Below, one piece after another: positions 29,924 to 49,495 of a stretch of DNA of 64,000 nt (its first letter is position 1; every line of letters starts with the position of its first letter). The notes beneath the pieces are model-generated. The model saw nothing but the letters and a program-made list of their open reading frames with translations, had not been told where the DNA came from and did no database searches. The translations under genes and the position numbers were made by a program. Source of the stretch: Giardia intestinalis (taxonomy: Eukaryota); NCBI GenBank assembly GCA_000002435.2, contig CM018792.1; one strand, written 5' to 3'.

Positions 29924-30430
29924 TTATTATTCTCAAAGTTTGCAAGAGCTGTGAAAATTTGTGGTTCCACGCTTGCCACACGTTTCAGAAGGCGGTAGCA
30001 TCCAGCCATGCTGAGGTCGCAGGCGCGTTGGCCACGTACCTTACAGAAGAAGGCCTAGTTTTATTCTTGGACGTTCTCCCTGAAGGTACTTGGCTAATAT
30101 TTCTCTGCTGCACTTCGCGGTGAAACATTCAACTTTTACACTGCTCTGCCCACACTTTCTAGTGTGAGAGAGTACTTTTGTGTACTAAACTAATCCTATT
30201 AGCTGCACCCGGCCCGTCGTCTGAGCCCGGTGTAATCCCTTGTACCCAGTCCTACGGCTTCTACCTTCTGTCATCCACCTACGGAGGTCCTGCTCACCGG
30301 TGCCCATGGGTCCACTCCACACCAACGAGCACGCGAGCTATCAATGTATGTCATCGATTCAAAGTCCGGTATGTTACAAGTCCCGGTAGCGGTCTTTACT
30401 TCCTGGACACAGGCACACATCAATCGGCTA

Positions 30431-31660
30431 ATGTTCGAGAAAATTCTCCTCGGAATCGCTATCTTGCAGATGGCGCGGGCATCCACGTGTCAAGCACAAA
30501 GCGGCGGCGATCCTGGAACTTGTGAGAAATGTGATGCTCTTATTGGCCAAACGAAGTATTGTTCTAAGTGCAACGGAGCAAACTACGCCCCCGTGAACGG
30601 TGCTTGTGAGGACGTGGAGACGCAGGAGGATAAAAAAGCTCTTTGCAAAGCACACGCCAGCGGGGCTTGTACAACGTGCGGAGGCGCCTCCTTCATGTAC
30701 AAGGACGGCTGTTATTCAAAGGACACTGAACCAGGACAGAGCATGTGCACGCAAGCCTCTGAGGGAAAATGCACCGAGGCGGCCCCGGGGTACTTTGCTC
30801 CGGTGGGAGCGGCGAACACTGAACAATCTGTGGTCGCATGTGGCGATACAACTGGAGTAACAATAGCAGCTGGCGGAAACACATACAAGGGCATTGCTGA
30901 CTGCGCAGAGTGCGGCGCCCCTGACGCAACAGCCGGCGCTGAGGCCGGCAAGGTTGCAACGTGTACCAAGTGTGGAGTCAGTAAGTATCTCAAGGATAAT
31001 ACGTGCGTAGATAAAGCCCAGTGCGATTCTGGTAACACCAACAAGCTCGTTGCCGTTGACGATCCTGAGAATGGCAACAAATGTGTTTCTTGCAGCGATA
31101 ACCTCAATGGTGGCGTTGCCAATTGCGACACCTGTAGCTACGATGAGCAATCTAAGAAGATCAAGTGTACAAAATGCACCGATAACAACTACCTGAAAAC
31201 CACAAGCGAAGGCACGTCGTGCGTACAAAAAGACCAATGCAAAGACGGCTTCTTCCCCAAGGATGACAGCAGTGCAGGAAATAAATGCCTCCCTTGTAAT
31301 GACAGCACCGACGGAATTGCCAATTGCGCCACGTGTGCTCTGGTTAGTGGCCGATCAGGGGCTGCCCTCGTTACGTGCTCCGCCTGCATAGACGGTAAGA
31401 GACCCAACAAGGAAGGCGCAGCATGCTTTGAATGTAACATGGAAGGCTGTGTTTATTGTAGCGGTGCTAATAAGTGCGAGGAGTGCAGCGATGGGTTCAA
31501 ATTAGAGGGTGACAAGTGCGTGTCTTCTGGCAGTGCGGGAGTCAATAAGAGTGGGCTCAGCACAGGGGCCATCGCGGGGATCTCCGTGGCTGTGATCGCT
31601 GTCGTGGCTGGCCTTGTGGGCTTCCTCTGCTGGTGGTTTGTGTGTAGAGGAAAGGCGTGA
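30431..31660 (+). CDS. vsp: variant-specific surface protein (VSP)
   Basis: Signal-peptide-like N-terminus (MFEKILLGIAILQMARAS), many CXXC motifs, a GGCY motif, and a C-terminal TM helix followed by the invariant VSP tail '...GFLCWWFVCRGKA'. The start is taken at the signal-peptide Met (30431) rather than the upstream in-frame ATG at 30344. Confidence 0.9.
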   Translation: MFEKILLGIAILQMARASTCQAQSGGDPGTCEKCDALIGQTKYCSKCNGANYAPVNGACEDVETQEDKKALCKAHASGACTTCGGASFMYKDGCYSKDTEPGQSMCTQASEGKCTEAAPGYFAPVGAANTEQSVVACGDTTGVTIAAGGNTYKGIADCAECGAPDATAGAEAGKVATCTKCGVSKYLKDNTCVDKAQCDSGNTNKLVAVDDPENGNKCVSCSDNLNGGVANCDTCSYDEQSKKIKCTKCTDNNYLKTTSEGTSCVQKDQCKDGFFPKDDSSAGNKCLPCNDSTDGIANCATCALVSGRSGAALVTCSACIDGKRPNKEGAACFECNMEGCVYCSGANKCEECSDGFKLEGDKCVSSGSAGVNKSGLSTGAIAGISVAVIAVVAGLVGFLCWWFVCRGKA

Positions 31661-37777: not shown

Positions 37778-39640
37778 TTACTTTTCACTTATACGCTCTA
37801 TTTTTCCTAGCCCCACAGATCTGTTGTCGCTGCGGAGAATCATTCTTCCCATAAGTTTGCTCTTGCTAAACTCTTTCACTATTACAGCAACGTTAAAGAT
37901 AAGAGTCATTCGAACATATGCAGACTTTCCTACCAAAGGCGGGTTCTTTCTAATAACTTCTTGGGTTGACGGGTTTATTTGAGCATTTATTTTATGTACC
38001 CTAGCCTCTACTCTGCTACTTCCGACATAACAATCATACACATCTCCTACACTAATTCCCCGAGGGGTGTTAAGGACCAGAACAAGGGCCTTGACAGTCG
38101 TAGCTAGGATCATGTTGTTTATCCACACACCCTTTGACACAGGTCCCTGTTGAAGAAGGATCCCCGTTAAGACAAAGCAAGATCCTTGAGGCATTTCCTT
38201 CACTACAACACTACTGTCGAGCTTATCACAATTATTGCATAGCTTAGTAGCACGCTTATCTGGTGCCAAATACAGAGTAACAGTATCATAGGCAACTGCT
38301 TTATCTGCCTCCACAGCATCTACCATGATGCTTACTATTTGAAACAGATACATAGACGGTAGATGGACGATGCTATCGCTGAGTTGGAGGATGCCTGACT
38401 CTACTACACAGTTTGCAGCAAAGACCTTTTTCCCCTCATACGTATCTGGAGTTACATCAAAAAGAATGATAGTAGGACTTGTTTTTTCTCCCTTAATTTG
38501 AGACGTTGAACGAATCGACTGAGTCTTATAAATCTCCTCGCCTAAACTCGTATGCTTTCTAACCCAATCTGGAAGACATCCTGCATTCCCTGGCGTCAAG
38601 TTATGAGAGCCATCTTCGCCTATACCACTTACAGGAATAAAGGTAACTTCTCCGCCAAACTGGATGTCCTTACGAAGCACTTTAGTTAATACAGTTACAA
38701 TCTCTACAAAACGCCCCTCGTTCCAGTCTGTTCTGTCTAACTTGTTCACTGCAACCATGATATGCTTAACACCAAAAATCATTAACAATTGCAAATGCTC
38801 ACGTGTTTGACCATCATCTGACAAACCCTTTTCAAATTCCTTGGGGGATGCATCTAAAACCAAGACAGCTGCATCCGGTTGAGAGACGGCTCTAATAAGT
38901 GATGGAACAAAGTCTCGGTGTCCAGGACAGTCTTGCAGGAAAACTGTGTGAGGGACAGAGTAGTTATCACCGAGTTCTGGGAATGCCAGTGTGAGGGTAT
39001 GATTACACACATCCATCGTTACCCCGCGCTGACGCTCTTCATCGTTAGTATCCAAGAGAAAAGCGTAGGAGAATGTACTTTTATTATAAGTGTCTGCAAG
39101 CGCCTGCGTACGTGTCCTTTCTCGCATGGAGACAGACCCCGATAGAACAGCTAGATGTCCAAATATGGTGCTCTTTCCTGCGTCAACATGCCCAACGACC
39201 AGGACATTAATTGTATTCCTTGATTTAATGAGCCCTGCTGCTCCCTTGATGACTTCTTCACTACGCTCAACATCTGCTATGAATTTAGCGATGTGCTGCT
39301 GAGAAGGAGTTGCCTTCATGGTACCAATGTTCGCTACTGAACTTAACGAGGTCGATGGTGTTATTGGGGTGGGGGTCGAAACAGTTTCAAACGTTGTTTT
39401 TGGTGTAGAACAAGTAGTGCTACCAGTATTTGATGGAGTAGAGCCGGTGGAGCTTTTCTTGCTTTGCCAAGCAGGTCTTCCCTCCACAGCTCCCCCGCTC
39501 TTCTTCAGCCTGCCACAATCATAGTCGTCGTAGTCGTCATAACCATCATCACTATAGTCGCTATAGTTATTGTGAGAGATGTAACGGGGCATCAGAAAAA
39601 CTTTAAAGATGACATTCTCTGTGTATTCATTTAAGTGCAT
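37778..39640 (-). CDS. eEF1A-family translational GTPase, HBS1/eRF3-like (N-terminal low-complexity extension + GTPase + domains II/III)
   Basis: G1 'GHVDAGKST', G3 'DCPGHRDF', 'GQTREH', G4 'NKLD'. About 200 aa of N-terminal Ser/Thr/Asp-Tyr-rich extension. The start may be Met17 (39592), leaving a 16-nt gap to the divergent gene. Confidence 0.8.
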   Translation of the reverse strand: MHLNEYTENVIFKVFLMPRYISHNNYSDYSDDGYDDYDDYDCGRLKKSGGAVEGRPAWQSKKSSTGSTPSNTGSTTCSTPKTTFETVSTPTPITPSTSLSSVANIGTMKATPSQQHIAKFIADVERSEEVIKGAAGLIKSRNTINVLVVGHVDAGKSTIFGHLAVLSGSVSMRERTRTQALADTYNKSTFSYAFLLDTNDEERQRGVTMDVCNHTLTLAFPELGDNYSVPHTVFLQDCPGHRDFVPSLIRAVSQPDAAVLVLDASPKEFEKGLSDDGQTREHLQLLMIFGVKHIMVAVNKLDRTDWNEGRFVEIVTVLTKVLRKDIQFGGEVTFIPVSGIGEDGSHNLTPGNAGCLPDWVRKHTSLGEEIYKTQSIRSTSQIKGEKTSPTIILFDVTPDTYEGKKVFAANCVVESGILQLSDSIVHLPSMYLFQIVSIMVDAVEADKAVAYDTVTLYLAPDKRATKLCNNCDKLDSSVVVKEMPQGSCFVLTGILLQQGPVSKGVWINNMILATTVKALVLVLNTPRGISVGDVYDCYVGSSRVEARVHKINAQINPSTQEVIRKNPPLVGKSAYVRMTLIFNVAVIVKEFSKSKLMGRMILRSDNRSVGLGKIERISEK

Positions 39641-40778
39641 TCAAGATGTTCACACTGGCGTCTTTTCGCCCCTGGAATTGGTGCCGAACGAACCAGTAAC
39701 GGAATCTCAGCGAACTTACCCCATGGGGATAAGTGGAGCAGACTTAAAGCTTTTTCAACATGATGTCACAACAATTGAGCCACGAGATAAATATGTCATC
39801 ATCTCCATTAACTATACCAGCTATATTGTGAAACGTGATTGCCTGACAGTTGTTGTTTTGACTGCGGGGATGTCAGAGAAGGACGCTGTCCATATGGGGA
39901 AAAAATTCGAGAGCGAAGCACTTAAACGTGCATACGAGGAAGAAGTTAAGAACATGTATGACACCGAGCTCAGAAAGTATTCAGAGCTTCTCTACATAGG
40001 GACGATTTTGCGATATGAAGTTACACGACTGAAGAACTCGCTAGAAAAAGCACAGGAACTCATCACTCAGCTGTCCAAGGTTGTCCCTGATGATCTCAAG
40101 AAGTCAGTGGAAGACATCAATTCTCTTGGGGGACAAGCATCTTCACTTATCAATGCTTTCAAGTACCTCTTCGACGACGATCTAGAAGTCCTTGCCCTTT
40201 GCTTTGAGAATCAAGTGTCTCGAAGAAAGAAGCTAGAACGTGATAATGCCTTGACAAATCAACCCTTCCACTTTCCCAAATATGGCATACAAACAGATAG
40301 TGAGACATCCGATAGCTCAGAATCTATTAGTGACGAAGACTATCCTGTCCCCCTAGATGCAATTCTCACGTTTCTAGAAAAGTATTATTTCGAAGTGCAG
40401 AGCATCGGGTCAACTGCTATCATTTTGAAGCAGAAGATTACAGATGCAATCTTCTTTCGACAGCTTCAATTAGATACTAAACGTAACTTTTTCCTAGGCT
40501 TAGATGCAGTCCTTGGGATCATCTCATGTGGATGCCTCATTGTAACGGGCGTAGGAAACTTTTTTGGGGCTAATGTTTTGAACCCATGGAACTTCAGCCC
40601 ACCTGGGCCACTCAGTACGCAAAGTGATTTATTTCCAGACATACTCAGTGTATCTTTGTGGATAGCATGCCCCGCTGTTATATTTATAGTTACCAATCTA
40701 TTAGTCCTTTTTTACATTATGCAGAAAAATAAAAAAGAAATCCGGATGCAAGATTTAATTTCGCAGTTCAAGAGCTAA
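39609..40778 (+). CDS. hypothetical protein (389 aa) with predicted coiled-coil middle and two C-terminal TM helices
   Basis: Long ORF. The C-terminus contains two hydrophobic stretches (LGIISCGCLIVTGVGNFF; VSLWIACPAVIFIVTNLLVLFYI). Confidence 0.5.
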   Translation: MTFSVYSFKCIQDVHTGVFSPLELVPNEPVTESQRTYPMGISGADLKLFQHDVTTIEPRDKYVIISINYTSYIVKRDCLTVVVLTAGMSEKDAVHMGKKFESEALKRAYEEEVKNMYDTELRKYSELLYIGTILRYEVTRLKNSLEKAQELITQLSKVVPDDLKKSVEDINSLGGQASSLINAFKYLFDDDLEVLALCFENQVSRRKKLERDNALTNQPFHFPKYGIQTDSETSDSSESISDEDYPVPLDAILTFLEKYYFEVQSIGSTAIILKQKITDAIFFRQLQLDTKRNFFLGLDAVLGIISCGCLIVTGVGNFFGANVLNPWNFSPPGPLSTQSDLFPDILSVSLWIACPAVIFIVTNLLVLFYIMQKNKKEIRMQDLISQFKS

Positions 40779-41165: not shown

Positions 41166-41172
41166 GTTTACT
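41166..41172 (-). promoter_or_regulatory. poly(A) signal AGTAAAC downstream of repeat-VSP stop (TAG at 41185-41187)
   Basis: The reverse complement of 41166-41172 is AGTAAAC. The 15-nt context ttaggtagtaaacgc is identical to that at 31661-31675 after the other VSP. Confidence 0.5.
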
Positions 41173-41184
41173 ACCTAAGTACAT

Positions 41185-44100
41185 CTACGCTTTCCCCCGA
41201 CAAATAAACCACCAACAGAGGAAGCCGGCAAGGCCTCCGACGACGACCACCACGGCGACGGTGATACCTGCTATGGCGCCTGTGGAAAGGCCTCCCTTAT
41301 TGACGCTTCCACCGGCACCGCCGCTAGATACGCATGCGTTTGCGGCCTCGTCCAGTGCGTGCCCCTCCGCGCATGCTTTGCACTTGGCTGTGCCCGTGTC
41401 CCCTGTCGGCGCATCACAGGCCGCACAGTTTGCCACTCCTTTGTTGCTATCTGCACCAACGGAGTCTGAGCACAGAATGCACTCGCTGCCCGGTGTCTTA
41501 ACTGATGCCTTGTTTTGGAAAACACTTCCGTCAGCCTTGCAAGCGGCACATACCCCACCGACTGCATTGGTGCATATAAGTTCTCCGGGAGACGCCCCTG
41601 TTTTATAACAGCCGCCCATGAAGAGGAAGTACCCGTCGCCGCCACATTTACCACACGAGGTGTCCGTGCCCTCTATTGCGGCTCCGCCCGATTGCGTGCA
41701 CTTTGCCGTCTTTGTGACGAGATCGTCCCCGAACGCCGTGCAGACACCGTCGATGGGTGCGAAGCCCTGCTTGCATTGTGTACACGCTTGGGCTGATCCT
41801 ATAGTTACCAGTTTGTCGACCTCGCATTGGAAAGACGGAGGGGCCCTGCATGCGTTTGCGGCCTCGTCCAGTGCGTGCCCCTCCGCGCATGCTTTGCACT
41901 TGGCTGTGCCCGTGTCCCCTGTCGGCGCATCACAGGCCGCACAGTTTGCCACTCCTTTGTTGCTATCTGCACCAACGGAGTCTGAGCACAGAATGCACTC
42001 GCTGCCCGGTGTCTTAACTGATGCCTTGTTTTGGAAAACACTTCCGTCAGCCTTGCAAGCGGCACATACCCCACCGACTGCATTGGTGCATATAAGTTCT
42101 CCGGGAGACGCCCCTGTTTTATAACAGCCGCCCATGAAGAGGAAGTACCCGTCGCCGCCACATTTACCACACGAGGTGTCCGTGCCCTCTATTGCGGCTC
42201 CGCCCGATTGCGTGCACTTTGCCGTCTTTGTGACGAGATCGTCCCCGAACGCCGTGCAGACACCGTCGATGGGTGCGAAGCCCTGCTTGCATTGTGTACA
42301 CGCTTGGGCTGATCCTATAGTTACCAGTTTGTCGACCTCGCATTGGAAAGACGGAGGGGCCCTGCATGCGTTTGCGGCCTCGTCCAGTGCGTGCCCCTCC
42401 GCGCATGCTTTGCACTTGGCTGTGCCCGTGTCCCCTGTCGGCGCATCACAGGCCGCACAGTTTGCCACTCCTTTGTTGCTATCTGCACCAACGGAGTCTG
42501 AGCACAGAATGCACTCGCTGCCCGGTGTCTTAACTGATGCCTTGTTTTGGAAAACACTTCCGTCAGCCTTGCAAGCGGCACATACCCCACCGACTGCATT
42601 GGTGCATATAAGTTCTCCGGGAGACGCCCCTGTTTTATAACAGCCGCCCATGAAGAGGAAGTACCCGTCGCCGCCACATTTACCACACGAGGTGTCCGTG
42701 CCCTCTATTGCGGCTCCGCCCGATTGCGTGCACTTTGCCGTCTTTGTGACGAGATCGTCCCCGAACGCCGTGCAGACACCGTCGATGGGTGCGAAGCCCT
42801 GCTTGCATTGTGTACACGCTTGGGCTGATCCTATAGTTACCAGTTTGTCGACCTCGCATTGGAAAGACGGAGGGGCCCTGCATGCGTTTGCGGCCTCGTC
42901 CAGTGCGTGCCCCTCCGCGCATGCTTTGCACTTGGCTGTGCCCGTGTCCCCTGTCGGCGCATCACAGGCCGCACAGTTTGCCACTCCTTTGTTGCTATCT
43001 GCACCAACGGAGTCTGAGCACAGAATGCACTCGCTGCCCGGTGTCTTAACTGATGCCTTGTTTTGGAAAACACTTCCGTCAGCCTTGCAAGCGGCACATA
43101 CCCCACCGACTGCATTGGTGCATATAAGTTCTCCGGGAGACGCCCCTGTTTTATAACAGCCGCCCATGAAGAGGAAGTACCCGTCGCCGCCACATTTACC
43201 ACACGAGGTGTCCGTGCCCTCTATTGCGGCTCCGCCCGATTGCGTGCACTTTGCCGTCTTTGTGACGAGATCGTCCCCGAACGCCGTGCAGACACCGTCG
43301 ATGGGTGCGAAGCCCTGCTTGCATTGTGTACACGCTTGGGCTGATCCTATAGTTACCAGTTTGTCGACCTCGCATTGGAAAGACGGAGGGGCCCTGCATG
43401 CGTTTGCGGCCTCGTCCAGTGCGTGCCCCTCCGCGCATGCTTTGCACTTGGCTGTGCCCGTGTCCCCTGTCGGCGCATCACAGGCCGCACAGTTTGCCAC
43501 TCCTTTGTTGCTATCTGCACCAACGGAGTCTGAGCACAGAATGCACTCGCTGCCCGGTGTCTTAACTGATGCCTTGTTTTGGAAAACACTTCCGTCAGCC
43601 TTGCAAGCGGCACATACCCCACCGACTGCATTGGTGCATATAAGTTCTCCGGGAGACGCCCCTGTTTTATAACAGCCGCCCATGAAGAGGAAGTACCCGT
43701 CGCCGCCACATTTACCACACGAGGTGTCCGTGCCCTCTATTGCGGCTCCGCCCGATTGCGTGCACTTTGCCGTCTTTGTGACGAGATCGTCCCCGAACGC
43801 CGTGCAGACACCGTCGATGGGTGCGAAGCCCTGCTTGCATTGTGTACACGCTTGGGCTGATCCTATAGTTACCAGTTTGTCGACCTCGCATTGGAAAGAC
43901 GGAGGGGCCCTGCATGCGTTTGCGGCCTCGTCCAGTGCGTGCCCCTCCGCGCATGCTTTGCACTTGGCTGTGCCCGTGTCCCCTGTCGGCGCATCACAGG
44001 CCGCACAGTTTGCCACTCCTTTGTTGCTATCTGCACCAACGGAGTCTGAGCACAGAATGCACTCGCTGCCCGGTGTCTTAACTGATGCCTTGTTTTGGAA

Positions 44101-45627
44101 AACACTTCCGTCAGCCTTGCAAGCGGCACATACCCCACCGACTGCATTGGTGCATATAAGTTCTCCGGGAGACGCCCCTGTTTTATAACAGCCGCCCATG
44201 AAGAGGAAGTACCCGTCGCCGCCACATTTACCACACGAGGTGTCCGTGCCCTCTATTGCGGCTCCGCCCGATTGCGTGCACTTTGCCGTCTTTGTGACGA
44301 GATCGTCCCCGAACGCCGTGCAGACACCGTCGATGGGTGCGAAGCCCTGCTTGCATTGTGTACACGCTTGGGCTGATCCTATAGTTACCAGTTTGTCGAC
44401 CTCGCATTGGAAAGACGGAGGGGCCCTGCATGCGTTTGCGGCCTCGTCCAGTGCGTGCCCCTCCGCGCATGCTTTGCACTTGGCTGTGCCCGTGTCCCCT
44501 GTCGGCGCATCACAGGCCGCACAGTTTGCCACTCCTTTGTTGCTATCTGCACCAACGGAGTCTGAGCACAGAATGCACTCGCTGCCCGGTGTCTTAACTG
44601 ATGCCTTGTTTTGGAAAACACTTCCGTCAGCCTTGCAAGCGGCACATACCCCACCGACTGCATTGGTGCATATAAGTTCTCCGGGAGACGCCCCTGTTTT
44701 ATAACAGCCGCCCATGAAGAGGAAGTACCCGTCGCCGCCACATTTACCACACGAGGTGTCCGTGCCCTCTATTGCGGCTCCGCCCGATTGCGTGCACTTT
44801 GCCGTCTTTGTGACGAGATCGTCCCCGAACGCCGTGCAGACACCGTCGATGGGTGCGAAGCCCTGCTTGCATTGTGTACACGCTTGGGCTGATCCTATAG
44901 TTACCAGTTTGTCGACCTCGCATTGGAAAGACGGAGGGGCCCTGCATGCGTTTGCGGCCTCGTCCAGTGCGTGCCCCTCCGCGCATGCTTTGCACTTGGC
45001 TGTGCCCGTGTCCCCTGTCGGCGCATCACAGGCCGCACAGTTTGCCACTCCTTTGTTGCTATCTGCACCAACGGAGTCTGAGCACAGAATGCACTCGCTG
45101 CCCGGTGTCTTAACTGATGCCTTGTTTTGGAAAACACTTCCGTCAGCCTTGCAAGCGGCACATACCCCACCGACTGCATTGGTGCATATAAGTTCTCCGG
45201 GAGACGCCCCTGTTTTATAACAGCCGCCCATGAAGAGGAAGTACCCGTCGCCGCCACATTTACCACACGAGGTGTCCGTGCCCTCTATTGCGGCTCCGCC
45301 CGATTGCGTGCACTTTGCCGTCTTTGTGACGAGATCGTCCCCGAACGCCGTGCAGACACCGTCGATGGGTGCGAAGCCCTGCTTGCATTGTGTACACGCT
45401 TGGGCTGATCCTATAGTTACCAGTTTGTCGACCTCGCATTGGAAAGACGGAGGGGCCCTGCATGCGTTTGCGGCCTCGTCCAGTGCGTGCCCCTCCGCGC
45501 ATTCCATGGGACTGCTTATTCCCTCTATTGTTCCGCACTGATTGCCAGTTGCGCGACTGTTTCTAGTGCCTCCAGCGCAGTTTGCAGCAAGCACATTCAG
45601 CACGAATAGAAGCTCTACTACCAACAT
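41185..45627 (-). CDS. vsp: variant-specific surface protein (VSP) containing ~8 identical 172-aa tandem repeats (1480 aa)
   Basis: Signal peptide MLVVELLFVLNVLAANCAGG, CXXC-rich ectodomain with GGCY motifs, C-terminal TM helix and the tail 'GFLCWWFICRGKA'. The internal unit 'CAEGHALDEAANACRAPPSFQCEVDK...TGDTGTAKCKA' is repeated 8 times. Confidence 0.9.
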   Translation of the reverse strand: MLVVELLFVLNVLAANCAGGTRNSRATGNQCGTIEGISSPMECAEGHALDEAANACRAPPSFQCEVDKLVTIGSAQACTQCKQGFAPIDGVCTAFGDDLVTKTAKCTQSGGAAIEGTDTSCGKCGGDGYFLFMGGCYKTGASPGELICTNAVGGVCAACKADGSVFQNKASVKTPGSECILCSDSVGADSNKGVANCAACDAPTGDTGTAKCKACAEGHALDEAANACRAPPSFQCEVDKLVTIGSAQACTQCKQGFAPIDGVCTAFGDDLVTKTAKCTQSGGAAIEGTDTSCGKCGGDGYFLFMGGCYKTGASPGELICTNAVGGVCAACKADGSVFQNKASVKTPGSECILCSDSVGADSNKGVANCAACDAPTGDTGTAKCKACAEGHALDEAANACRAPPSFQCEVDKLVTIGSAQACTQCKQGFAPIDGVCTAFGDDLVTKTAKCTQSGGAAIEGTDTSCGKCGGDGYFLFMGGCYKTGASPGELICTNAVGGVCAACKADGSVFQNKASVKTPGSECILCSDSVGADSNKGVANCAACDAPTGDTGTAKCKACAEGHALDEAANACRAPPSFQCEVDKLVTIGSAQACTQCKQGFAPIDGVCTAFGDDLVTKTAKCTQSGGAAIEGTDTSCGKCGGDGYFLFMGGCYKTGASPGELICTNAVGGVCAACKADGSVFQNKASVKTPGSECILCSDSVGADSNKGVANCAACDAPTGDTGTAKCKACAEGHALDEAANACRAPPSFQCEVDKLVTIGSAQACTQCKQGFAPIDGVCTAFGDDLVTKTAKCTQSGGAAIEGTDTSCGKCGGDGYFLFMGGCYKTGASPGELICTNAVGGVCAACKADGSVFQNKASVKTPGSECILCSDSVGADSNKGVANCAACDAPTGDTGTAKCKACAEGHALDEAANACRAPPSFQCEVDKLVTIGSAQACTQCKQGFAPIDGVCTAFGDDLVTKTAKCTQSGGAAIEGTDTSCGKCGGDGYFLFMGGCYKTGASPGELICTNAVGGVCAACKADGSVFQNKASVKTPGSECILCSDSVGADSNKGVANCAACDAPTGDTGTAKCKACAEGHALDEAANACRAPPSFQCEVDKLVTIGSAQACTQCKQGFAPIDGVCTAFGDDLVTKTAKCTQSGGAAIEGTDTSCGKCGGDGYFLFMGGCYKTGASPGELICTNAVGGVCAACKADGSVFQNKASVKTPGSECILCSDSVGADSNKGVANCAACDAPTGDTGTAKCKACAEGHALDEAANACRAPPSFQCEVDKLVTIGSAQACTQCKQGFAPIDGVCTAFGDDLVTKTAKCTQSGGAAIEGTDTSCGKCGGDGYFLFMGGCYKTGASPGELICTNAVGGVCAACKADGSVFQNKASVKTPGSECILCSDSVGADSNKGVANCAACDAPTGDTGTAKCKACAEGHALDEAANACVSSGGAGGSVNKGGLSTGAIAGITVAVVVVVGGLAGFLCWWFICRGKA
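41300..45500. repeat. tandem array of ~8 apparently identical 516-bp units inside the VSP coding region
   Basis: The six-frame track shows identical ORFs recurring every 516 nt (e.g. 41618, 42134 ... 45230 and 41515, 42031 ... 45127). The flanks diverge at ~41330 and ~45497. The period is a multiple of 3, so the frame is maintained. Confidence 0.9.
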
Positions 45628-45907
45628 TGTAGTATACCTTGGGCTTTACACCGACTCCTGGCGATAGCAGTGCCTGGGCGGGCCCCTTCCTCCAGGGAGA
45701 GTTCTAGTTCGAGGGCGACCGCCAGGGAGGAGCCCGGTGCTGTGTTACTGGCCCTTGTTCGATGCTTGGCCAGTCTGAAGGCTGGGGCGGGTCGCTGATA
45801 ATATATAGTGCGACGTATCGTCCCACTGACGCATCTAAGCCTGTGCGCTCCTCAATTGCTCCGCGGGCATCCCAGCCCAAGCAGCCTCTGAGGCCCACGG
45901 ATGATGC

Positions 45908-45985
45908 GGTCGGCTAACTCAGTCGGTAGAGCAACACTGGAGTCTGAAGTCTGAGATCAGATGCCCTCGATCTCGGGGGAAGAAC
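45908..45985 (+). pseudogene. degenerate tRNA-like fragment related to the tRNA-Ile at 48692
   Basis: The first 25 nt (GGTCGGCTAACTCAGTCGGTAGAGC) match the acceptor/D-arm of the downstream tRNA-Ile at 23 of 25 positions. Then comes a duplicated AGTCTGA heptamer and a 6-bp perfect hairpin (gagatc...gatctc). No canonical anticodon or T arm folds. Confidence 0.3.
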
Positions 45986-48486
45986 TCCTATGCCCGCCTC
46001 CCCTAGAAGCTGCCGCTCCTCGCGGTGCCCCCTAGGACTTCCTTCTCTCTGGCCCGTCGGGGCCAACCATCGTCTGGCATCTAGTGAGCACCCGCTGTCC
46101 CGGGCCTTGCGTCGGTCACAGGACCTGGCCTCAGAGCAGTTGACTCTGGCGCTCCGTGACGAAGATGGGATACGCCACGACCCCGGGTGCCTACCCCGTT
46201 CCTCGGGGTGCCTCTTCGTCTTCTCATGAAGCGAGTCATCAGTCCCGAGTATGATCGGAGGGTGCGCTCCCCGTGCGCCTCTGTCTTGGAGTCATAGTAC
46301 GCGTTCGTGGATGCCGGCGGAGTACTCCTATACGTTGGCGTCGGGGAGGAGGCTCGGCCCTCTGCTCACGGATCGCAGGGCGCTCTTGCAGGTGCTCCGT
46401 CACCCAGCACGAGATCATGTCGACGCTCACCCTGTGCAGTGTGTCTGGCTCAGTGATGTGTGGGCTGGTCCATCCTCACACCGCACACTTGGGGTGATGC
46501 TTCGGTCCACCGAGGCGTCGTCCAAAGCATCAGAAGCGATCAGGACCGGTTCGCTGTCAGGCCGTCTCTCTCTACAACCGGCACCCGTCTACTCGATGGT
46601 GTCAAAGGATTACGCAGCTGCTGTGGTAAGCGCCCAGCAAGTGGCCCAGGCCGCCACCACTCTCCGGTGCAGGCAGGATTAGTCCACTTCTGCCAGCCAG
46701 ACACTCCAAGGATCCCGACTTGCCTGTCGAGGGATTCACATGGGTCACGTGTGGGTCCGTCTCGACCAGCGTGGTGAGTGATTAGTGCCATCACTAGCTT
46801 CAAGCTCTCCGTTGCCTTGGAAGCTCCTTAAGACCGGCCAGGAAGAAGGCCTCCTGCTCCTCAGTGCTCCCACACCCAGTGTTGACCGTCGAGCCAATCG
46901 CTTCGCCGGGCCTATCGCTTCTGTGACTGCCCCGTCGCGTCGCTGTCGTCGGCACGGGCAGTGAGCGGGGCATCTCCTCAGCTCCTGGCGAGCAGGTTCT
47001 GTCCCGCGCAGCACAGAAGCATGCGCAGGGTCCCGAGGGACCGAGTCCAGGGGTGCAGCGTGTCGCAGCCGGAGGAAGGCCTCGACGCAGCTCCTTGGAA
47101 CTGTGTTGTGGAGCGAATCATGATCGTCCGTTCATCGTGCTTGTCCTGCCCTGTCTCTGGGGAAGGGCTAGACGGAACCGTACGGAGCACGCATTCCATC
47201 CTATGGATCGCGCCGAGGATCTCGCTGAAGGCCTGCACCCGGATGGGCTCGCCAGCGCAGGCCCGGAGACTTCGAGCCCCGCGGACTGGCCGTCCGTGCT
47301 CTCCGATGGCTGAGGGGGCTCTTGTCTCTCAGGGGCCAGGCCGTCCTGATCCGGCCCTCTGGATAGCAAGGTGCTGGTCGTCGGTGGCGCTGTTAGGGGG
47401 CAGCTCCCCCTCGAGGCGAGGCTTCAGGCCGGGCAGTGGGGTGGTGAATGCCGCTCCTCCGCTTCCCCGCTGTGTGGGGAGGTACCCTCCCCTGAGCACG
47501 TTCGCACGAAGGGCGCTGAAGAGGACGTCCTTCTCCATCCCCGCTGCCCCACTCAGTAGCACCCTGCATCCGGTGTCCGTGCTGCATACGTCTGGACGGC
47601 CTCGCCGCGGAGGGTCTTCGCGCAGGACAGGCACGTGCTCTTCCGCTCCTACTACTTTGGCGTTCGCCCGGTGCCGCTCCAGCGCAGAGTGCTCCTCTCC
47701 GTCAGGTTCCTAAGGTCCTCGTTCTCGCTGTGATACCTGATCTATCCCTCTTGAGGGGTGGGGTTCACGGTGCACTGGTGCGTGTCCGGGGCGACGTCTC
47801 CCTTGTAGAGTTCTGCAGGTTCCACGACCCTCTGGGGATAGCCAGCGACTGGGACCCCTGTTTGAGGCTAGGGCTGGCCTGGCTCCACCGGGCCGCGAAC
47901 AACTCAAGGGCGCTCTGGTGTCGCTGGTCTCTCAACCGCACACTCGACCTGTCTTAGCAGATAACGGGTCGTGCCTGGGCACCTCCGGGAAGCGCTCCGG
48001 TCCGATGCTTTCTGTCCGGGGCATCACGGCAGGCAACGGTGAGGGCCCACGAGGGACACCGCACTCGGGCGCCGGGGCATGGTGCATGGGCTGGCACCGT
48101 CTGTCTGTCGCAAGGCTGCAGAAGGAGCTCAGACGGGGAGGGTTCCCGAGACGTGCTGCTCAGGGCCCTCCGGTGATGTGAAGGAGGCGTGGCAGCTCCT
48201 CGTGCTGTGGATCGCATAGGAGGTCCCCGATGGTGCAGTCTCTTAGTGAACTCCAGCATCCTTGAGCCAGTTCGTGTAGTCAGCGAGTGACCCCATTGGG
48301 ACCATTGAGAGCCTGCCACCATGCGCCGCTCTCCATGACAGGGAGGTGCGGGCCCCCTGCTCACTCTATCGGCTGCTCTCTAGACTCTCTTCTTCGGGCC
48401 TCTACAAGCCCTCCTCGGCGGCTTCCCGTCTGGGCCTCTCCCAAAGGCTCGGACTCTCAGACCTCGAGGGTGCGCAGAGGGCTGGC

Positions 48487-48738
48487 GGGTGCTGGGCCGG
48501 CGGGGGGTCCGGCGAGGGGCCGCGGTCGGTTAGCTCAGTCGGTAGAGCGTCAGTCTGATAAGCTGAAGGCGGGTGCTGGGCCGGCGGGGGGTCCGGCGAG
48601 GGGCCGCGGTCGGTTAGCTCAGTCGGTAGAGCGTCAGTCTGATAAGCTGAAGGCGGGTGCTGGGCCGGCGGGGGGTCCGGCGAGGGGCCGCGGTCGGTTA
48701 GCTCAGTCGGTAGAGCGTCAGTCTGATAAGCTGAAGGT
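48487..48738 (+). repeat. three tandem 84-bp units, each containing 41 nt of GC-rich leader plus the 5' 43 nt (acceptor-D-anticodon arm) of tRNA-Ile
   Basis: The unit 'gggtgctgggccggcggggggtccggcgaggggccgc|ggtcggttagctcagtcggtagagcgtcagtctgataagctgaagg' recurs at 48487, 48571 and 48655. Only the third copy continues into the variable loop, T arm and acceptor 3' strand. Confidence 0.8.
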
Positions 48739-48764
48739 CGGGGGTTCGAGCCCCCCACCGACCA
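48692..48764 (+). tRNA. tRNA-Ile (anticodon GAU)
   Basis: Manual cloverleaf: 7-bp acceptor GGTCGGT/ACCGACC; D arm GCTC-AGTCGGTA-GAGC; anticodon arm TCAGT-CTGATAA-GCTGA (U33, anticodon GAT, A37); 5-nt variable loop; T arm GGGGG-TTCGAGC-CCCCC; discriminator A. No encoded CCA. Closely resembles eukaryotic tRNA-Ile genes. Confidence 0.8.
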
Positions 48765-48778
48765 CTTTGTCTTCCATA

Positions 48779-48970
48779 ATGGGTCCTCTGTGGTGGGTCC
48801 TCTGTGGTGGGTCCTCTGTGGTGGGTCCTCTGTGGTGGGTCCTCTGTGGTGGGTCCTCTGTGGTGGGTCCTCTGTGGTGGGTCCTCTGTGGTGGGTCCTC
48901 TGTGGTGGGTCCTCTGTGGTGGGTCCTCTGTGGTGGGTCCTCTGTGGTGGGTCCTCTGTGGTGGGTCCTC
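48779..48970. repeat. 14-bp minisatellite (ggtcctctgtggtg)n, ~13.5 copies, starting 15 nt after the tRNA
   Basis: Perfect 14-nt periodicity across 48781-48967. It produces the artefactual periodic ORF 'GPLWWVLCGGSSVV'n in the frame track. Confidence 0.85.
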
Positions 48971-49495
48971 GTGAGCCTGGACGGGCAGTCGTGCCTAGGG
49001 GAGTGCACCGGGGACAAAGTGGTGGGAGAGGTGTCCGGCGGCGTGCGGAGGTGCTGGTGCGAGCGGGGCCTCCTGCCGGCACTGGACAGATCCGAGTGTG
49101 TGCCCGCAGCTGAGTGTCCCCCTGATATATACTCATGACGTTTCCACAATTCTTCATAGAGTTGTGAATATCTGATATCTTTTAAAAGTAGTCACAAATT
49201 GTATGCATTTGCTATGACGATCCTTGCACAGATTGTTATTAAATATTGCTAAAACTAACCGTGTGTTCAATCTTCAAAATAAAAGATTTAGATCTAAATA
49301 ACAACATACATTTGGACACAGCCTTCTGAGAGCGCCAACTACTTTCACGTTTTAATCTTGTCCTCATCTCTACTTCTAATTCTAGACAAGTTCCATTTCG
49401 CTGATTGCCTAACTTTTAGTAAACCAAGGCGCTGCAAATTATCACTATATCAAACTTCTAATGTCTTAGAGTTCCCTTTACTTAACTGTAGATGC

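What the first reader, a model, noticed from the sequence alone, without database searches (positions are those of the whole stretch)
41300..45500. VSP gene built from ~8 apparently identical 516-bp tandem repeats
The 1480-aa VSP on the minus strand contains a 172-aa Cys-rich unit (about six CXXC and two GGCY motifs per unit) repeated about 8 times. The six-frame track gives identical translations for every copy, implying no DNA divergence between copies. Perfect identity over >4 kb points to very recent expansion or concerted evolution by unequal crossing-over or gene conversion. It predicts copy-number polymorphism between isolates, nuclei or cells, which is relevant to antigenic variation and epitope repetition on the trophozoite surface. 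Repeat-containing VSPs are known, but a perfectly homogenised 8 x 172-aa unit is notable. Such arrays are also classic sites of assembly collapse or expansion.
Basis: seen in the sequence. Interest (0 to 1): 0.7.

Follow-up and report, generated by a model that had tools for sequence, protein, structure and literature searches.

The report
Known Giardia VSP with 8 identical repeats
This is the already catalogued Giardia surface-antigen gene vsp122 (GL50803_113357); its 516-bp repeat really is present as eight perfectly identical copies here, against three in the older assembly of the same strain and one in a related isolate.

Summary
Window 41332-45502 is a head-to-tail array of 8.08 copies of a 516-bp unit with no mismatch between copies. 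It lies in frame inside a 1480-aa minus-strand ORF (41185-45627) that has every VSP hallmark.

The gene is not new. The exact protein is XP_001705598.2 / KAE8304120.1, annotated "VSP" in the long-read Giardia intestinalis WB C6 reference. Deleting five units in silico gives exactly XP_001705598.1, the 620-aa version from the older WB assembly. That version is vsp122 / GL50803_113357, which Adam et al. [quoted passage not shown]

Isolate DH (assemblage A2) and two metagenome assemblies carry a 1.08-copy gene of 276 aa. It differs from every WB copy at the same four unit positions. The WB array therefore coalesced much more recently than the A1/A2 split.

What may add to the literature is the 3-to-8 revision, the single-copy A2 allele and the zero divergence. 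This is an ordinary, already known kind of feature, and the interest is low.

The parts
41185..45627 (-). Complete CDS of VSP GL50803_113357 (vsp122), 1480 aa plus the stop codon
   Evidence: ORF list and translation. Pfam VSP PF03302 at E = 2e-57. Exact match to XP_001705598.2 / KAE8304120.1.
45623..45629 (-). CAATGTT initiator-like motif that includes the ATG start codon (45627-45625)
   Evidence: Read directly from the sequence. Adam et al. 2010 list CAATGTT as the Inr of vsp122.
45503..45627 (-). Unique 5' leader of the CDS. It comprises the hydrophobic signal-peptide-like N-terminus MLVVELLFVLNVLAA plus 27 further residues up to ...SSPME.
   Evidence: SignalP was not run, so the signal peptide is inferred from hydrophobicity and the family pattern.
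41375..45502 (-). Eight identical, in-frame 516-bp units encoding 172 aa each. In coding orientation, unit 1 runs 45502-44987 and unit 8 runs 41890-41375.
   Evidence: No mismatch between copies. Each period has 18 Cys, 6 CXXC and 1 GGCY. No internal self-similarity within a unit.
41332..41374 (-). Terminal 43-bp partial copy (R), encoding CAEGHALDEAANAC and identical to the first 43 bp of every unit
   Evidence: The same perfect 43-bp direct repeat flanks the single unit in isolate DH. In the AF2 model this C-terminal copy folds confidently as the last hairpin of the module.
41188..41331 (-). Conserved VSP C-terminus: Gly/Ser stalk, transmembrane helix (about residues 1449-1471) and the CRGKA cytoplasmic tail
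   Evidence: Translation, hydrophobicity maximum at residues 1449-1471, best Pfam stretch at 1381-1480 and a predicted helix.
41166..41172 (-). AGTAAAC, matching the Giardia polyadenylation signal consensus AGTRAAY, 12 nt after the TAG stop codon
   Evidence: Read from the sequence. The consensus itself is from established knowledge, not a tool result.

Best explanation
The locus is vsp122 (GL50803_113357) on chromosome 4 of Giardia intestinalis WB C6 (assemblage A1). It is an intact variant-specific surface protein gene.

The ectodomain is built almost entirely from eight identical copies of one 172-aa disulfide-rich module. The gene structure is leader-(R-U)8-R-stalk-TM-CRGKA, where R is a 43-bp direct repeat and U is 473 bp.

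The array grows and shrinks by homologous misalignment between units. The possible routes are unequal sister-chromatid or inter-allelic crossing-over, replication slippage, and gene conversion. The single-unit form R-U-R, as found in A2 isolates, is the minimal substrate.

The WB array arose or was last homogenised very recently, which is why the copies are still identical. Because the repeat is perfect and longer than Sanger or short reads, the 2007 WB assembly condensed it to three copies. The PacBio assembly resolves eight.

Functionally (inferred, not shown here), when this VSP is the one expressed it would display eight identical epitope sets on an elongated stalk. Changes in copy number would alter protein size and epitope valency without changing antigenic specificity.
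For: Shown by tool results:
- The array is a perfect 8.08 x 516 bp.
- VSP hallmarks are all present: PF03302 at E = 2e-57, 10.1% Cys, 48 CXXC, GGCY, a TM segment plus CRGKA, a CAATGTT start context and an AGTAAAC signal.
- The protein is an exact match to XP_001705598.2 / KAE8304120.1 on a 2,761,001-bp WB contig. The in-silico 3-copy version is an exact match to XP_001705598.1.
- Adam et al. 2010 describe vsp122 = GL50803_113357: TR516, 620 aa, 60 Cys, 18 CXXC, chromosome 4. They warn that assemblies condense repeat numbers and that vspA6 and vspC5 show allelic variation in copy number. The arithmetic fits exactly: 1480 - 5 x 172 = 620.
- The syntenic locus in DH (AHGT01000015.1) and in two metagenome assemblies carries a 276-aa R-U-R gene. 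Flanks are 99.3% identical, and there are 4 unit substitutions shared against all 8 WB copies.
- A Poisson estimate expects about 13 substitutions among copies if they dated from the A1/A2 split. None is observed.
- The AF2 model of one unit plus the C-terminus is confident (pLDDT above 94 over residues 21-190). It shows a single all-beta hairpin module.
- Mini-VSPs consisting of one such module exist, for example P0064 at 239 aa and 59% identity.
Against: - No reads were available, so neither the copy number of 8 nor the perfect identity can be verified independently. Consensus polishing tends to homogenise perfect repeats.
- The 3-versus-8 difference could in principle be a real difference between the DNA stocks rather than assembly collapse.
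- The single-copy state in DH (an older shotgun assembly) could itself be a collapse. However, an 18-kb MEGAHIT k141 contig that runs straight through the locus argues for a true single copy in that sample (assembler behaviour is my inference).
- The direction of change is not polarised: it could be expansion in A1 or contraction in A2. No outgroup orthologue was found, because the P15 contig ends before the locus and P0064 shows no synteny.
- Expression of this VSP, and any effect of valency, are untested here.
Confidence: 0.9

Rival explanations
1. The eight-copy, perfectly identical array is partly an assembly or polishing artefact. On this reading the true WB locus has a different copy number, or has slightly divergent copies that consensus calling and short-read polishing homogenised.
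For: Two assemblies of the same strain disagree, 3 versus 8 copies. Xu et al. 2020 polished the PacBio assembly with Illumina reads, and such reads cannot be placed uniquely in a perfect 516-bp repeat. Adam et al. 2010 explicitly say that repeat copy numbers are approximate.
Against: A 4.2-kb array is well within PacBio read length. The older Sanger assembly independently gave copies identical at protein level, since the 620-aa protein equals the in-silico 3-copy version exactly. The repeat itself is real in any case: the period, the borders and the 43-bp R are all reproduced in DH.
Confidence: 0.12
2. The 3-copy (2007) and 8-copy (2020) versions are both real. They would represent different alleles among the four genome copies of a trophozoite, or drift in copy number between laboratory stocks of WB C6.
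For: Allelic variation in repeat copy number is documented for vspA6 and vspC5 within WB (Adam et al. 2010). Giardia is tetraploid with two nuclei. Xu et al. note higher allelic variation around VSPs. Pollo et al. 2020 report intra-isolate structural variants enriched for VSPs.
Against: There are no data for this gene. Collapse of a perfect 516-bp repeat in a Sanger whole-genome assembly is the simpler explanation, and the one anticipated by the authors of that analysis. The supplement of Pollo et al. as held contains no entry for 113357.
Confidence: 0.25
3. The array is ancient and is kept identical by continuous concerted evolution, with the single-copy A2 allele being a secondary contraction, rather than the WB array being a recent expansion.
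For: The 1.08-copy A2 gene already contains an orphan N-terminal copy of the 14-aa R motif. In the AF2 model this motif is the last hairpin of a module, which is what a contraction remnant of a multi-module gene would look like. The mini-VSP P0064 lacks that N-terminal R.
Against: All three A2-type assemblies show one copy. No outgroup is available to polarise the change. Both scenarios predict the same present-day sequence, so they are not distinguishable here. The low confidence of the N-terminal R in the model may only reflect the absence of homologous columns in the alignment.
Confidence: 0.3

Closest known systems
vsp122 / GL50803_113357 of G. lamblia WB (Adam et al. 2010, BMC Genomics 11:424; RefSeq XP_001705598)
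   Same: It is the same gene. The protein is identical to XP_001705598.2, and the in-silico 3-copy derivative is identical to XP_001705598.1. The 516-bp period, CAATGTT start, chromosome 4 location and convergent arrangement with vsp121 all agree.
   Different: The published description gives two to three copies and 620 aa. This window, from the long-read assembly, has 8.08 copies and 1480 aa. I found no paper in the searchable library that comments on the revision.
vspA6 / CRP170 (about 22-23 copies of 195 bp) and vspC5 (more than 20 copies of 105 bp) of G. lamblia WB
   Same: These genes share the architecture of a short leader, in-frame near-identical tandem repeats and a conserved C-terminus. 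In vspC5, as here, the repeats run up to the conserved 3' region. Copy number varies between alleles and related genes.
   Different: The unit here is 2.6 to 5 times longer and corresponds to a whole VSP ectodomain module rather than a sub-module. The copy number is lower. Immunodominance and allelic variation have been shown for those genes but not for this one.
Single-module mini-VSPs (e.g. P0064, 239 aa; ESU38233.1 of isolate DH, 276 aa)
   Same: They consist of a signal peptide, one copy of the same Cys-rich module and a TM-CRGKA C-terminus. ESU38233.1 is the syntenic allele, with 7 nucleotide differences over 831 bp.
   Different: They have one module rather than eight. P0064 lacks the N-terminal R motif and shows no evidence of synteny.

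Membership tests
Giardia variant-specific surface protein (VSP, Pfam PF03302) | Match to the family profile above the curated threshold | tested here: met
   PF03302 at E = 2e-57, 195.3 bits against a cut-off of 31.4, in 9 stretches
Giardia variant-specific surface protein (VSP, Pfam PF03302) | Conserved C-terminus: transmembrane segment followed by the pentapeptide CRGKA and a stop codon | tested here: met
   The protein ends ...GLSTGAIAGITVAVVVVVGGLAGFLCWWFICRGKA*. The hydrophobicity maximum lies at residues 1449-1471.
Giardia variant-specific surface protein (VSP, Pfam PF03302) | Cys-rich ectodomain (about 10-12% Cys) with frequent CXXC, plus the GGCY motif | tested here: met
   150 Cys (10.1%), 48 CXXC and one GGCY per unit
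Giardia variant-specific surface protein (VSP, Pfam PF03302) | N-terminal signal peptide | tested here: inconclusive
   The hydrophobic N-terminus MLVVELLFVLNVLAA is consistent with one, but no signal-peptide predictor was available. Xu et al. 2020 required a SignalP-positive start to name a gene 'VSP', and RefSeq names this gene VSP.
Giardia variant-specific surface protein (VSP, Pfam PF03302) | One-at-a-time surface expression with switching | not testable with these tools
   No expression data were found. The gene is only listed among VSPs with a putative miR2 site at the 3' end.
Tandem-repeat-containing VSPs (vspA6, vspC5 and the 30 TR genes of Adam et al. 2010) | In-frame, head-to-tail, near-identical repeats between a short leader and the conserved 3' end | tested here: met
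   8.08 x 516 bp at 100% identity, covering residues 43-1432 of 1480. The gene is listed as TR516 in the paper's table.
Tandem-repeat-containing VSPs (vspA6, vspC5 and the 30 TR genes of Adam et al. 2010) | Repeat copy number differs between isolates or assemblies | tested here: met
   There are 8 copies in the WB long-read assembly, 3 in WB 2007, and 1 in DH and two metagenome assemblies. Some of this difference is likely assembly collapse.
Tandem-repeat-containing VSPs (vspA6, vspC5 and the 30 TR genes of Adam et al. 2010) | Allelic copy-number variation within one clone, and immunodominance of the repeat | not testable with these tools
   This needs spanning long reads, Southern blots and serology. 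It is documented for vspA6 and vspC5 only.

The most novel reading that the evidence does not exclude
The array is a WB/A1-lineage-specific, very recent amplification of a whole VSP ectodomain module from a single-module ancestor still present in A2. It would still be length-polymorphic among the four genome copies or between cells of a clone. Giardia could then vary the size and epitope valency of one antigen by recombination, independently of VSP switching.
Probability: 0.3. Interest if true: 0.4.

Novelty: already known. Interest (0 to 1): 0.2.

Why it matters
The main value is practical. This locus is a concrete, checkable example of a VSP whose published size (620 aa, 61 kDa) was an assembly artefact, or only one allele. 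The current reference gives 1480 aa.

Anyone doing proteomics, antibody work, primer design or short-read variant calling on GL50803_113357 should know three things. The size of the gene depends on the assembly, short reads cannot be placed within it, and A2 isolates appear to carry a single-module allele.

Biologically it adds one more case to the established picture that VSP tandem repeats expand and contract quickly. The unusual detail is that the unit amplified here is a complete ectodomain module.

Tried and rejected
- Tandem Repeats Finder found nothing because its period limit of 500 is below 516. I replaced it with a direct lag comparison.
- An exact look-up of the 1480-aa protein in the contig index returned nothing, although the cluster look-up found it.
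- The word-indexed homology search did not return the gene's own cluster. Its best hit was only 37% identical.
- Neighbour-based look-ups in Logan assemblies gave only short contigs that stop before the VSP.
- The assemblage E (P15) contig ends at the methyltransferase gene, just short of the locus, so it provides no outgroup.
- The closest mini-VSP, P0064, lies on a 1.5-kb contig whose upstream region is unrelated to the window. Orthology therefore cannot be claimed.
- The held supplements of three papers contain no entry for 113357 (Be-2 comparison, three-strain proteomics, nanopore structural variants). The apparent matches in the last one were digits inside other numbers.
- The two 1994 papers on VSP repeat copy number are not held.
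- There is no sequence relative in the PDB and no significant fold match. The best was TNFR1 at E = 0.16, so I make no fold assignment beyond 'disulfide-rich beta-hairpin module'.
- The 43-bp R motif is absent from JGI metagenome contigs.
- I considered and rejected an internal sub-repeat within the 172-aa unit, since there is no self-hit.
- I considered and rejected the 389-aa ORF at 39609-40778 as the tail-to-tail VSP partner. It has no CRGKA and no VSP similarity. The partner is the 438-aa VSP at 30344-31660.
Full report
**Observation**

A direct self-comparison of the window at a lag of 516 bases gives an uninterrupted run of 3655 matches. This defines a tandem array at 41332-45502 of 4171 bp, or 8.08 copies. 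The eight full units are one and the same 516-base string. Flanks compared in the same register are only 25-27% identical, so the borders are sharp. Tandem Repeats Finder reported nothing only because its longest period is 500.

The array lies in frame in a 1480-aa ORF on the minus strand, 41185-45627. At protein level it covers residues 43-1432 as 172-aa units. Each period has 18 Cys and six CXXC, one of which spans the junction. The unit has no internal sub-repeat.

**What the gene is**

The protein has all the features of a VSP.
- It ends in a transmembrane segment followed by CRGKA.
- It matches Pfam VSP PF03302 at E = 2e-57.
- It is 10.1% Cys with 48 CXXC.
- It starts in a CAATGTT context.
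- An AGTAAAC motif follows 12 nt after the stop codon.

An exact-sequence look-up identifies it as KAE8304120.1 / XP_001705598.2, 'VSP' of Giardia intestinalis ATCC 50803 (WB clone C6), on a contig of 2,761,001 bp. Neighbouring ORFs are exact matches to WB proteins: HBS1-like GTPase, tRNA ribosyltransferase, GL50803_5809 and GL50803_16402. The window is thus part of the PacBio chromosome-scale WB reference described by Xu et al. 2020 (PMC7000408).

**Relation to the literature**

Adam et al. 2010 (PMC2996952) catalogued 30 WB vsp genes with tandem repeats. [quoted passage not shown] Their table lists vsp122 = GL50803_113357 as TT_TR516, chromosome 4, Inr CAATGTT, 620 aa, 60 Cys and 18 CXXC.

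Removing five units from the window protein gives 620 aa. That in-silico sequence is exactly XP_001705598.1, the earlier RefSeq version. The same gene therefore went from 3 to 8 units between the Sanger assembly and the long-read assembly.

[quoted passage not shown] They also recalled allelic copy-number variation in vspA6 and vspC5. Xu et al. do not discuss this gene. Only two papers in the searchable library name it. The second lists it among VSPs with a putative miR2 site at the 3' end.

**Comparison with other isolates**

The same 90% cluster contains a 276-aa protein from isolate DH, assemblage A2 (ESU38233.1). This is exactly the length of a one-unit version. I retrieved the locus from the DH assembly (AHGT01000015.1, a 163-kb contig) and from two metagenome assemblies, one an 18-kb MEGAHIT k141 contig and the other a 67-kb scaffold. 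All three are syntenic with the window, with the same 389-aa ORF, HBS1-like gene and tRNA ribosyltransferase. All three carry 1.08 units.

The flanks are 99.3% identical to the window, with 43 differences in 6709 bp. The one-unit CDS differs from a WB one-unit version at 7 of 831 positions. Four of these lie in the unit: three synonymous changes and K102R. All eight WB units carry the WB state at all four positions.

If the WB copies were as old as the WB/DH split, about 13 substitutions would be expected among them, and none is seen (P about 2e-6). The 95% upper bound puts their common ancestor within roughly the last quarter of the WB branch. This is a star-tree approximation using the flank divergence rate.

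In DH the unit is flanked by a perfect 43-bp direct repeat, R. The general structure is therefore leader-(R-U)n-R-C-terminus, with n = 1 in A2 and n = 8 in WB.

A de Bruijn assembler with k = 141, which exceeds 43, would break at a true multi-copy loop rather than run through it. I therefore regard the single copy in that sample as probably real. This is an inference about assembler behaviour, not a tool result.

**Module anatomy**

A full HMMER scan of 1.84 billion representatives with the last unit plus the C-terminus finds 249 relatives at E <= 1e-3. Several 229-239-aa 'mini-VSPs' consist of a signal peptide, one module and TM-CRGKA, for example P0064 at 59% identity.

An AlphaFold2 model built on 57 aligned sequences is confident over residues 21-190 (pLDDT above 94). 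It is essentially all beta-hairpin. The C-terminal copy of the R motif (CAEGHALDEAANAC) forms the last hairpin, and it is followed by a disordered stalk and the TM helix.

No solved structure is related by sequence or significantly by fold; the best match is TNFR1 at E = 0.16. The amplified unit is thus a complete ectodomain module plus a 7-residue linker (RAPPSFQ), not a sub-domain.

The N-terminal orphan R could be a relic of an earlier multi-module state. However, the low model confidence there may only reflect poor alignment coverage, and I could find no outgroup. Whether A1 expanded or A2 contracted therefore stays open.

**Mechanism**

The sequence shows a perfect in-frame array bounded by a 43-bp direct repeat, different copy numbers in different assemblies and isolates, and no divergence between copies.

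From this I infer that copy number changes by homologous misalignment between units. The routes would be unequal crossing-over, slippage or gene conversion. The last expansion or homogenisation in the WB lineage was recent.

By analogy with vspA6, whose repeats are immunodominant according to the work cited, the expressed protein would present eight identical epitope sets on a long stalk. Copy-number change would then alter size and valency.

**Rival explanations**

Three rivals remain.
- The number eight, or the perfect identity, may owe something to consensus polishing.
- The 3-copy and 8-copy versions may both be real alleles or stock differences. This is plausible given Giardia's tetraploidy and the VSP-enriched structural variants reported by Pollo et al. 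2020.
- The array may be old and homogenised rather than recently expanded.

All three need spanning long reads or long-read assemblies of further isolates, which these tools cannot supply.

**Verdict**

However, the gene, its 516-bp repeat and the phenomenon of VSP repeat copy-number variation are already in the literature, and the 8-copy protein is in the current reference annotation.

The modest additions here are the explicit 3-to-8 reconciliation, the single-unit A2 allele with its 43-bp flanking repeat, and the divergence argument for recency. Novelty: already known. Interest is low.

Noticed in passing
window 48484-48765 (+): A tRNA-Ile(GAU) gene at 48692-48765 (ARAGORN; Rfam tRNA at 74.7 bits) is preceded by two extra copies of an 84-bp unit. 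The unit consists of a roughly 38-nt GC-rich spacer plus the first roughly 46 nt of the tRNA, giving a 3.1-copy tandem array at 99% identity made of truncated tRNA 5' halves. Offset BLAST hits suggest the copy number differs in isolate DH.
   Followed up: partly
window 48780-48970: A perfect 14-bp minisatellite (TGGGTCCTCTGTGG x 13.6) lies immediately downstream of the tRNA-Ile gene.
   Followed up: no
window 45700-49450: A GC-rich stretch (up to 64% against about 45% background) upstream of the VSP has no convincing ORFs. It is only 83-89% identical between WB and DH and has many indels, whereas the genes on either side are 98.5-99.3% identical. This fits the remark of Xu et al. 2020 that regions around VSPs are gene-poor and more variable.
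   Followed up: partly
window 30344-31660 (+): A second VSP lies in the window: 438 aa, ending ...FLCWWFVCRGKA. Its length equals that of vsp121 / GL50803_5812 in Adam et al. 2010. It is convergent with vsp122 across about 9.5 kb and five non-VSP genes, which explains the 'TT' (tail-to-tail) label in that paper's table. Its identity was not confirmed by exact look-up.
   Followed up: partly
window 41618-45220 (+): Each 516-bp unit carries the same 168-aa antisense ORF, seven full copies in all, running from ATG to a stop codon. It is Pro/Ala/Ser-rich and most likely a by-product of the GC-rich repeat rather than a gene. It was not tested.
   Followed up: no
window 37778-39640 (-) versus 39609-40778 (+): The 620-aa reading of the HBS1-like GTPase overlaps the start of the 389-aa ORF by 32 bp. 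Current RefSeq uses a 604-aa version (XP_001705595.2), so the annotated start was moved between assemblies.
   Followed up: no
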